Source: Octopus sinensis (Eukaryota). Taken from it: 64,000 nt of DNA. Positions 6,780 to 7,589 of the stretch are shown here, piece after piece. The notes beneath the pieces were generated by a model that was given only the letters and a program-made list of their open reading frames with translations, did not search any database and was not told the DNA's origin. The position numbers and the translations under genes were made by a program. Every line of letters starts with the position of its first letter. Within the stretch, counting starts at the first letter, position 1. The stretch is taken from contig NC_043002.1 in assembly GCF_006345805.1 (NCBI RefSeq), forward strand, positions 21,514,001 through 21,578,000. The letters are read 5' to 3'.

Positions 6780-7586
6780 TGACAAAAATTACATATGAGG
6801 AGTTTTATGACAGTTATATAATTTTTTTTATTTATTTTGATTTTTTGTTTCTATTATATATTTTTATTATACACTTGTTAAAATATTATTTATGCTCACA
6901 CTTACAAACATAAACATATTTAATTCAGCCTGTTCTAGGATCTAAAACTGATCGTATGTAATTTTTGTCAAATATTTCCCTGATGAGATTCTTACTCTAA
7001 AACATGAATGTTTGTAAATTAAACAAAAATGAAAAGAAAATGGAGATTTACGATATTTTAATTTATTAACATAATATTATATTAGGATGATATAATATAA
7101 TATAAATACTACAATCATACGATTATTTTGATTCAGCCCCAATAATGAGTTTATAAAAATTCATGTTTTTGGTTCAGAATCTCATCAGGCAAATATTTGA
7201 CAAAAATTACATATGTGGAGTTTTAGATTCTAGAATAGACTGAATTGAATATGTTTATGCTTGTTTGTTAGTGTGAACGTCAATAATTTAAAATAATATA
7301 TATAATAAAAGAAAAATCAAAATTAATAAAAAAAATTAATAAATACTAATATAATGGTCATAAAACTCCTCATATGTAATTTTTGTCAAATATTTCCCTG
7401 ATGAGATTCTTATCCAAAAACATGAGTTTTTATAAATTCATTATTGGGTCTGAAACTAAAAAATTGTAAGATGATAATATTTATATTTTATTATATTATA
7501 TTATATCACATTATATAATAATAATAATATATTATGTTAATAAATTAGAATATGTCCATCATAAATTTCCATTTTCTTTTCATTTT

Positions 7587-7589
<3 letters not shown>
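6780..7589. repeat. Nested inverted-repeat concatemer M-/X/M+/Y/M-/X(rc)/M+/Y(rc)
   Basis: ~77-bp module M at 6780-6806(-, partial), 6944-7020(+), 7148-7224(-), 7362-7438(+); spacer X 6807-6943 recurs reverse-complemented at 7225-7361; spacer Y 7021-7147 recurs reverse-complemented at 7439-7589. Confidence 0.85.

What the first reader, a model, noticed from the sequence alone, without database searches (positions are those of the whole stretch)
6780..7589. Flip-flop concatemer: M-/X/M+/Y/M-/X(rc)/M+/Y(rc) with a hammerhead-like core in M
Seen: a ~77-bp module M (aaaactcctcatatgtaatttttgtcaaatatttccCTGATGAgattcttatccaaaaacatgagtttttataaatt) alternates strand four times, and each of the two ~130-bp spacers recurs reverse-complemented. 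This gives two overlapping palindromes, one centred on Y and one on X(rc). Established: this geometry is what rolling-hairpin or repeated snap-back copying produces (flip/flop termini, as in parvoviruses), and Penelope-like elements carry minimal hammerheads and often have inverted terminal repeats. Inference: this may be a fossil of a small non-autonomous hammerhead-bearing retroelement copied by iterative hairpin self-priming and inserted beside (TA)n. The core is decayed: CUGAUGA and a GAU-UCUU-AUC stem II are present in the 7398 copy, but GAAA reads AAAA, consistent with CpG decay.
Basis: partly seen in the sequence, partly recalled or inferred. Interest (0 to 1): 0.75.

Follow-up and report, generated by a model that had tools for sequence, protein, structure and literature searches.

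The report
Thrice-folded Penelope retrotransposon end with hammerhead
This mirror-image stretch is three decayed pieces of the end of a Penelope-like jumping gene, each carrying a broken self-cutting (hammerhead) RNA motif; back-to-back pairs of such ends are already known, and the extra third piece here likely arose when the new DNA folded back once more during a single insertion.

Summary
The alternating geometry is real and three of its four joints are bridged by contigs of independent runs. But X, M and Y are not separate modules. X-M-Y(rc) is one continuous stretch, the hammerhead-bearing end (pLTR) of a dispersed Penelope-like retrotransposon. In other copies it runs straight into an RT + GIY-YIG ORF with the motifs of the Hydra clade. 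Head-to-head pairs occur at 19 of 62 family loci, with varied joints; this inverted-pLTR layout is published. Only the window has three strand switches among those 19. Both arm pairs are about 11% diverged, so the extra arm likely formed during or soon after one insertion, by one more fold-back. No rolling-hairpin replicon or independent non-autonomous element was found: the window's joints recur at no other fetched locus. The scan has already noted very similar Hydra-clade inverted ends, here and in other genomes. Verdict: new family member and a tidy mechanistic fossil; low interest.

The parts
5953..6779 (-). Older repeated fragment with a 222-codon open frame that looks like the C-terminal part of a LINE-type RT protein (label recalled from motifs; no family search). 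Cut at 6779, where the PLE insertion joins it with 2-3 shared bases.
   Evidence: frame in L001; 40 matches at 72-83%, 40 of 95 candidates scored; relatives continue past the joint
6780..6807 (-). 28-nt antisense piece of M (family positions 780 to 753); end of the fold-back copy; identical to 7361-7388 reversed
6803..7020 (+). Extra arm: sense X + M (family 609-830). With 6780-6807 it is an inverted copy of about 7148-7388 and includes the joint made there. Its hammerhead is cut off inside stem II (CUGAUGA 6980-6986, no GAAA).
   Evidence: 25 differences in 224 aligned
7022..7365 (-). Inverted, 5'-truncated pLTR copy (family about 970 to 609): Y, M-, X(rc)
7098..7200 (-). Decayed type I hammerhead: CUGAUGA 7188-7182, stem II intact at its base, G12 changed to A (7129), stem III C changed (7125), GUA site at 7120-7118
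   Evidence: (fold z -0.66)
7361..7365 (.). Head-to-head joint between the two main arms, with about 5 shared bases (TAAAA); its mirror image is at 6803-6807
7361..7588 (+). Sense pLTR copy (family 753 to about 970), ending at the family's first fixed 3' end, followed by (TA)n
   Evidence: 22 differences in 203 to the inverted arm
7387..7485 (+). Decayed type I hammerhead: stem I 7387-7397, CUGAUGA 7398-7404, long stem II 7405-7456, G12 changed to U (7457), stem III C changed (7461), GUA site 7466-7468
   Evidence: (fold z -0.81)
7589..8114 (.). (TA)n-rich microsatellite, the likely target site

Best explanation
The stretch is one decayed insertion of three 5'-truncated pieces of the hammerhead-bearing end (pLTR) of a Penelope-like retrotransposon with Hydra-clade motifs, likely built in a single event by two head-to-head cDNAs plus one extra fold-back. 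Shown: piece identity, joints, link of the pLTR to an RT-GIY-YIG ORF, two fixed 3' ends, equal age of both arm pairs. Step 1 (inferred, by analogy with Poseidon in vitro): the element's protein nicked (TA)n and began reverse transcription at the first of the family's two internal start sites. Step 2 (inferred): two copies, stopping at family positions about 609 and 753, were joined 3' end to 3' end through about 5 shared bases, giving 7022-7588, the textbook inverted pLTR. Step 3 (inferred): the strand running leftwards reached the end of the left arm, folded onto its own M, copied about 240 nt back across the new joint (7020 to 6780), and was joined to an older repeat through 2-3 shared bases, with loss of target DNA. 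The hammerheads are passengers; in the active element they would probably cleave as dimers through the palindromic stem III. The locus is now inert.
For: Family: 131 matches, 40 of 332 candidates scored; 62 distinct loci with the hammerhead region. ORF link on the same strand, order X-M-T-tail-ORF: L019 (89% to the family over positions 720-1104), L126, L128; L131 shows T-tail-ORF; inverted pLTR before an ORF in L132 and L112/L129. Motifs RWK, DKT, DI.NYY, DITMGS, YRDD, SNHP, CxCx5C, YIG, CxxC and CxH occur in natural frames and match the Hydra description. The unnamed 714-aa P0001 aligns along the ORFs (E down to 2e-66). Architecture: 19 of 62 loci are head-to-head; 12 of those 19 have one arm ending at each of two fixed sites about 110-130 nt apart, like the one-sided 'tail' and two RT start sites. 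Order and timing: the left arm contains the mirror image of the 7361-7365 joint; arm pairs differ by 25/224 and 22/203; the three M copies share only the same 2 differences from the family. Hammerhead: in 29 distinct hits of a pattern that did not include these positions, GU[A/C/U] follows GAAAC by 4-6 nt in 24 (control offsets 1-12), and stem I pairs in 66 of 87 cells vs shuffle mean 57.3, 0 of 5000 shuffles reaching it, with C-G/U-A exchange.
Against: Steps 1-3 are read from geometry only. Both main arms end at the first site (2 of 19 head-to-head loci do so), so snap-back on one cDNA fits 7022-7588 equally well. The fold-back joint at 7020/7022 has at most 1-3 shared bases. Equal divergence cannot separate 'during insertion' from 'shortly after'. 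No intact ORF was found; Pfam and PDB gave no significant hit; no tree was built. Rfam found no hammerhead on the window or on an intact copy. The stem I shuffle ignores relatedness. The locus survey is biased towards inverted copies because it was seeded with this inverted query.
Confidence: 0.72

Rival explanations
1. Same PLE origin, but the extra arm (6780-7020) is a host DNA-repair product: the fresh palindrome broke or stalled a fork, and fold-back or microhomology-mediated repair made an inverted duplication with deletion of the left flank, soon after insertion.
For: Palindromes are breakage-prone (established knowledge). The left joint abuts a truncated older repeat with 2-3 shared bases, and no continuation of that repeat was found to the right. 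Only 1 of 19 head-to-head loci has three switches.
Against: The fold-back starts exactly at the element's fixed 3' end (7022), where a nascent strand would run out of template. Divergence equals that of the primary pair. The joint at 7020/7022 is shared with a run of another species label.
Confidence: 0.25
2. All three switches are serial self-priming by the RT on one strand or on an antisense RNA (the self-priming model proposed for Adineta Penelopes), with no second target-primed cDNA.
For: Both main arms end at the same site. X forms the loop expected from a snap-back with about 5 shared bases. L021 joins at the palindrome CATATG. The model is published.
Against: In L024, L050, L075 and L168 the arm reaching further 5' lacks the tail that the other arm has, which snap-back on one cDNA cannot give. 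The two main-arm and extra-arm fold-backs lie on opposite strands.
Confidence: 0.3
3. One reading: a small non-autonomous hammerhead element that replicates by iterative rolling-hairpin copying and leaves flip/flop concatemers.
For: X/X(rc) and Y/Y(rc) do stand in flip and flop orientation; one joint is copied once.
Against: The three tested joints occur only in loci that overlap the window. Inner ends of arms vary from locus to locus. The sequence continues into an RT ORF. No longer alternating arrays among 62 loci.
Confidence: 0.04
4. MITE or foldback DNA transposon with Y as terminal inverted repeat and TA target duplication.
For: Several loci look like Y...Y(rc) between TA runs.
Against: 43 of 62 loci are not head-to-head within 250 nt; copies have a fixed 3' end and ragged 5' ends; the two arms usually end at different sites; the linked ORF is RT-GIY-YIG.
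Confidence: 0.02

Closest known systems
Hydra clade of C-terminal EN+ Penelope-like elements, incl. Hydra-1_Obim and Penelope-13_HM (Craig et al. 2021, PMC8557442; section 11, passages, File S1 Hydra sheet, File S2 and parts of the protein alignment read)
   Same: RWK, DKT, CxCx5C linker, GIY-YIG without CCHH, CxxC and CxH; type I hammerhead with tiny stem III near the 3' end; (TA)n targets; 5'-truncated inverted copy (noted for Penelope-13_HM).
   Different: The hammerhead differs from that of Hydra-1_Obim in File S2, and stem II spans about 55 nt against short hairpins there. About 1.8 kb of AT-rich non-coding sequence precedes the end, so the unit is likely over 4 kb (pieced from different copies) against 'generally <3 kb'. 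The one-sided tail is about 110-130 nt, not 30-40.
Inverted-pLTR insertions of Penelope elements (Arkhipova et al. 2013, PMC3846280, passages read; Craig et al. Fig. 2 legend)
   Same: Head-to-head inverted 5'-truncated copy, palindromes or microhomology at the joint, tail on one side only.
   Different: A third arm that re-copies the first joint; no ORF in this insertion; no target duplication seen.
Poseidon PAc of Anolis (Frangieh et al. 2024, PMC11167929; parts 1-2 of 4 read)
   Same: Two fixed RT start sites downstream of the hammerhead, AT-rich targets, both strands nicked and extended.
   Different: Different clade; here the ORF starts beyond the tail rather than inside the hammerhead; nothing was assayed.
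Minimal and canonical type I hammerheads of metazoan PLEs (Cervera and De la Pena 2014, PMC4209133; part 1 of 4 read)
   Same: Conserved core, 1-2 bp stem III with palindromic loop (AATT; AGCT in a sister family), motifs often paired on opposite strands.
   Different: Very long stem II; no Rfam model detects it.
Parvovirus rolling-hairpin flip/flop termini (recalled; no call)
   Same: Loop segments appear in both orientations.
   Different: No recurring joints, no multimers; the partner protein is an RT with GIY-YIG.

Membership tests
Hydra-clade PLE | Single ORF, RT followed by C-terminal GIY-YIG | tested here: met
   Order DKT, RT, linker, YIG on one strand in L126, L130, L131; all copies broken
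Hydra-clade PLE | N-terminal RWK motif | tested here: met
   L019, L127, L131, L132; RWF in L133
Hydra-clade PLE | DKG changed to DKT | tested here: met
   L019, L126, L131, L132, L139; VKT in L136
Hydra-clade PLE | CxCx5C linker | tested here: met
   L126, L131, L137
Hydra-clade PLE | No CCHH cysteine pair between GIY and YIG; CxxC and CxH in the EN tail | tested here: met
   Read by eye in L130 and L131 frames; CxxC and CxH in L130 and L137
Hydra-clade PLE | Hammerhead near the 3' end, upstream of the next ORF | tested here: met
   L019 and L128 (same strand), L132 (inverted); the pattern did not match in L126, L127, L129, L131 or L133
Hydra-clade PLE | Insertion into (TA)n | tested here: met
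   7589 onward; ends of other copies; not counted systematically
Hydra-clade PLE | Generally short (<3 kb) | tested here: inconclusive
   About 1.8 kb non-coding plus ORF suggests over 4 kb; no complete copy found
Hydra-clade PLE | RT phylogeny groups with Hydra | not tested
   Named Hydra proteins were only compared by eye; no tree
Type I hammerhead (family level) | CUGANGA, GAAA, UH in order with stems I-III | tested here: met
   (L007 z -2.69, L033 z -4.42)
Type I hammerhead (window copies) | Intact G12 and stem III | tested here: not met
   G12 is U at 7457 and A at 7129; third copy ends in stem II
Type I hammerhead | Match to an Rfam hammerhead model | tested here: not met
   No hit at E<=10; one search showed only the top 150 of 299 rows, none a hammerhead
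Type I hammerhead | Self-cleavage after GUH | not testable with these tools
   needs an in vitro assay
Non-LTR retrozyme | Tandem head-to-tail monomers without ORF | tested here: not met
   No monomer arrays in 62 loci; at most two tandem arms in L100 and L142; linked to an ORF
Rolling-hairpin replicon | Fixed hairpin joints repeated among copies | tested here: not met
   joints only in loci overlapping the window (fetched loci only, not the whole genome)
Rolling-hairpin replicon | Rep/HUH nicking protein | not tested
   No search made; the linked ORF is RT-GIY-YIG

The most novel reading that the evidence does not exclude
The locus is a frozen record of a Penelope RT folding back on the strand it has just made and re-copying its own fresh joint: iterated DNA-templated self-priming, one lap of rolling-hairpin-like copying by a telomerase-related enzyme. 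Together with sister loci that need two separately primed cDNAs, it would show that inverted pLTRs arise by double priming at two fixed start sites plus optional fold-backs.
Probability: 0.35. Interest if true: 0.45.

Novelty: new member of a known kind. Interest (0 to 1): 0.22.

Why it matters
How Penelope-like elements build their tandem and inverted ends is stated as open in Craig et al. 2021. This family gives natural products that constrain models: two fixed 3' ends, arm pairs that exclude single-strand snap-back, and one insertion with a datable second fold-back. Its long stem II also explains why Rfam and short-spacer descriptors miss such hammerheads. The locus itself is an inert fossil, and the layout is a variation on a published one.

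Tried and rejected
Rfam: no hammerhead on the window, on an intact copy or in the shown rows for 15 loci; the microRNA and snoRNA hits are microsatellite or chance. Pfam on 11 protein pieces incl. P0001 and PDB on one: nothing significant. Protein search with L137:7504-8688: none among 2931 candidates. Sequencing runs: no RNA holder listed; this says nothing on expression. No pre-insertion allele was recognised in 8 runs of contigs (tables were cut). The PLE ORF in L042 and the GIY-YIG frame in L031 were judged separate insertions. A TIR-like match between the two ends of the 1.8-kb stretch was dropped when the 5' side proved to continue. Alignment A2 misregistered stem III between subfamilies, so pair counts were done on anchored motifs instead. 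Hairpins behind the two 3' ends, a lead from earlier notes: a small hairpin at the first end and a variable longer one behind it in some of 14 copies; only one ORF-linked copy was informative for the second end; inconclusive. Literature: 5 searches found no description of this family or of a three-switch PLE insertion; the 2026 O. vulgaris repeat paper has no 'Hydra' or 'hammerhead' in its main text (supplements not opened). Repbase/Dfam were not available and may hold the family. Supplements of the bioRxiv preprint were not opened.

Full report
OBSERVATION. The two overlapping inverted repeats are real: 6780-7388 and 7020-7592 each align to their own reverse complement, far above dinucleotide shuffles (294 vs max 70; 278 vs max 89). 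The first M is only 28 nt, so there are three strand switches. The arms differ by about 11%, which excludes a chimeric-read artefact. Contigs of other runs bridge 6779/6780, 6803-6807 and 7020/7022, the last in a run with another species label (X13: 6856-7084, 13 differences). The joint at 7361-7365 is crossed with only 21-30 letters on one side.

WHAT IT IS. The repeat is dispersed: 131 matches with 40 of 332 candidates scored, and 62 distinct loci carrying the hammerhead region among those fetched. Alignment shows X-M-Y(rc) to be one continuous sequence with a fixed 3' end at (TA)n and ragged 5' ends, extending about 1.8 kb upstream as AT-rich non-coding DNA. Many copies run 110-130 nt past the first end to a second end: of 88 segments scored, 41 stop at the first, 28 at the second and 19 elsewhere. 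In L019, L126 and L128 the sequence continues on the same strand through the tail into an ORF; L131 shows the tail and ORF; in L132 and L112/L129 an inverted copy sits directly before an ORF; L128 shows ORF, non-coding stretch and X again, a partial tandem. The ORF copies are all broken, but natural frames show RWK, DKT, the RT motifs, SNHP, CxCx5C, YIG, CxxC and CxH, the signature that Craig et al. give for the Hydra clade (PMC8557442 section 11). By eye the frames follow the published Hydra alignment. An unnamed 714-aa protein, 35% identical to L136, aligns along them. Pfam and PDB were silent and no tree was built, so clade membership rests on motifs. The hammerhead differs from that listed for Hydra-1_Obim, so this is another family.

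THE HAMMERHEAD. The family has CUGAUGA, a stem II closed by GAUUC/GAAUC and spanning about 55 nt, then GAAA, a stem III with the palindromic loop AAUU, GUA, and a stem I with an internal loop. A pattern that fixed only the two core halves gave 31 genomic matches and 0 for the reversed control; 30 were fetched and gave 29 distinct hits. In these, GU[A/C/U] followed at 4-6 nt in 24 (control offsets gave 1-12), and stem I paired in 66 of 87 cells (shuffle mean 57.3; 0 of 5000), with C-G in 13 and U-A in 10 at the first pair; the third pair was weak. A sister family swaps the loop to AGCU, still palindromic. The shuffle ignores relatedness. Such short palindromic stems III point to dimeric cleavage (PMC4209133). 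In the window G12 is U (7457) or A (7129), stem III is broken in both, and the third copy ends inside stem II; folds are no better than shuffles (z -0.81 and -0.66). Rfam detects neither these nor an intact copy.

ARCHITECTURE. On family coordinates the locus reads -[780>753] +[609>830] -[970>609] +[753>970] (TA)n. The last two segments are the published inverted 5'-truncated pLTR. Such head-to-head pairs occur at 19 of 62 loci (biased upward by the inverted query), with varied joints. Twelve of the 19 have one arm ending at each fixed site, 2 (the window and L095) have both at the first, and 5 are other. This matches the one-sided tail and the two internal RT start sites shown for Poseidon, whose protein nicks and extends both strands (PMC11167929). 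In L024, L050, L075 and L168 the arm that reaches further 5' lacks the tail the other arm has; snap-back on one cDNA cannot make that, so two primed copies, or an RNA-level route, are needed there. The remaining eight of the 12 do not discriminate or are complex. Among the 19 only the window has three switches, and its joints are found in no other fetched locus.

MECHANISM. The left arm contains the mirror image of the 7361-7365 joint, so it was copied after that joint existed (shown). It starts exactly at the fixed 3' end of the middle arm. Its divergence from its template (25/224) equals that of the main pair (22/203), and the three M copies share only the 2 differences common to all, so copying happened during or soon after insertion (inferred). 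Relatives of that repeat continue past 6779 and no continuation was found to the right, which implies loss of target DNA or an already truncated copy. Host repair (0.25) or serial self-priming (0.3, overlapping in part with the best reading) remain open. A rolling-hairpin replicon and a MITE are not supported.

KNOWN VERSUS NEW. It works like, and by motifs is, a Hydra-clade PLE end. New in detail: an apparently unlisted family with a long stem II, long tail and long non-coding stretch, and one insertion with a second fold-back. Five paper searches found no description of either; Repbase and Dfam were not available. Papers seen: PMC8557442 (abstract, passages, section 11, parts of the supplement), PMC11167929 (parts 1-2 of 4), PMC4209133 (part 1 of 4), PMC3846280 and PMC13282606 (passages), bioRxiv 10.64898/2026.07.22.740005 (abstract and outline). 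The scan's notes already hold close parallels: two-armed insertions ending at two fixed sites in this genome and long-stem-II Hydra hammerheads in others; a look-up by this sequence found none. I had reached the Hydra and two-end readings before opening them (notes). Verdict: new member of a known kind; interest 0.22.

Noticed in passing
L072, L073, L078, L079, L084, L086, L088, L089, L090, L093 (around 1470-1600): A sister hammerhead family with the same core and long stem II but a different stem II sequence, mostly an AGCU loop III and a U-A first pair in stem I. Its element was not traced.
   Followed up: partly
L137:7274-8688: A 395-codon open frame of another Hydra-like family (RT thumb to EN) joined head-to-head to a 95%-identical inverted copy of its own C-terminal part, next to an ORF of the family studied.
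   Followed up: no
L033:650-2100; L032, L034, L040: About 1.5 kb of very AT-rich non-coding sequence upstream of X, with internal similarity between parts about 250 nt apart, and a microsatellite at its 5' side; unusually long for a Hydra-clade element.
   Followed up: partly
window 7151/7152: In run X1 a 1290-nt contig matches only 7152-7386 and has 1055 other letters before it: possibly an insertion allele in that sample.
   Followed up: no
L130:5162-6085: Asn-rich stretch between RT thumb and EN in ORF copies, recalling the N-rich inserts reported for Adineta Penelopes. Near-identical ORF copies cluster on contig C18.
   Followed up: no
L019:1290-1500 (-) and family positions 970-1040: Sequences just behind the two fixed 3' ends resemble each other weakly and can form hairpins; a candidate RT start signal.
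   Followed up: partly
window 63552-63920: Two tandem copies of a 184-nt unit, 88% alike.
   Followed up: no
window 1498-1872: Degenerate 10/20/60-nt tandem array.
   Followed up: no
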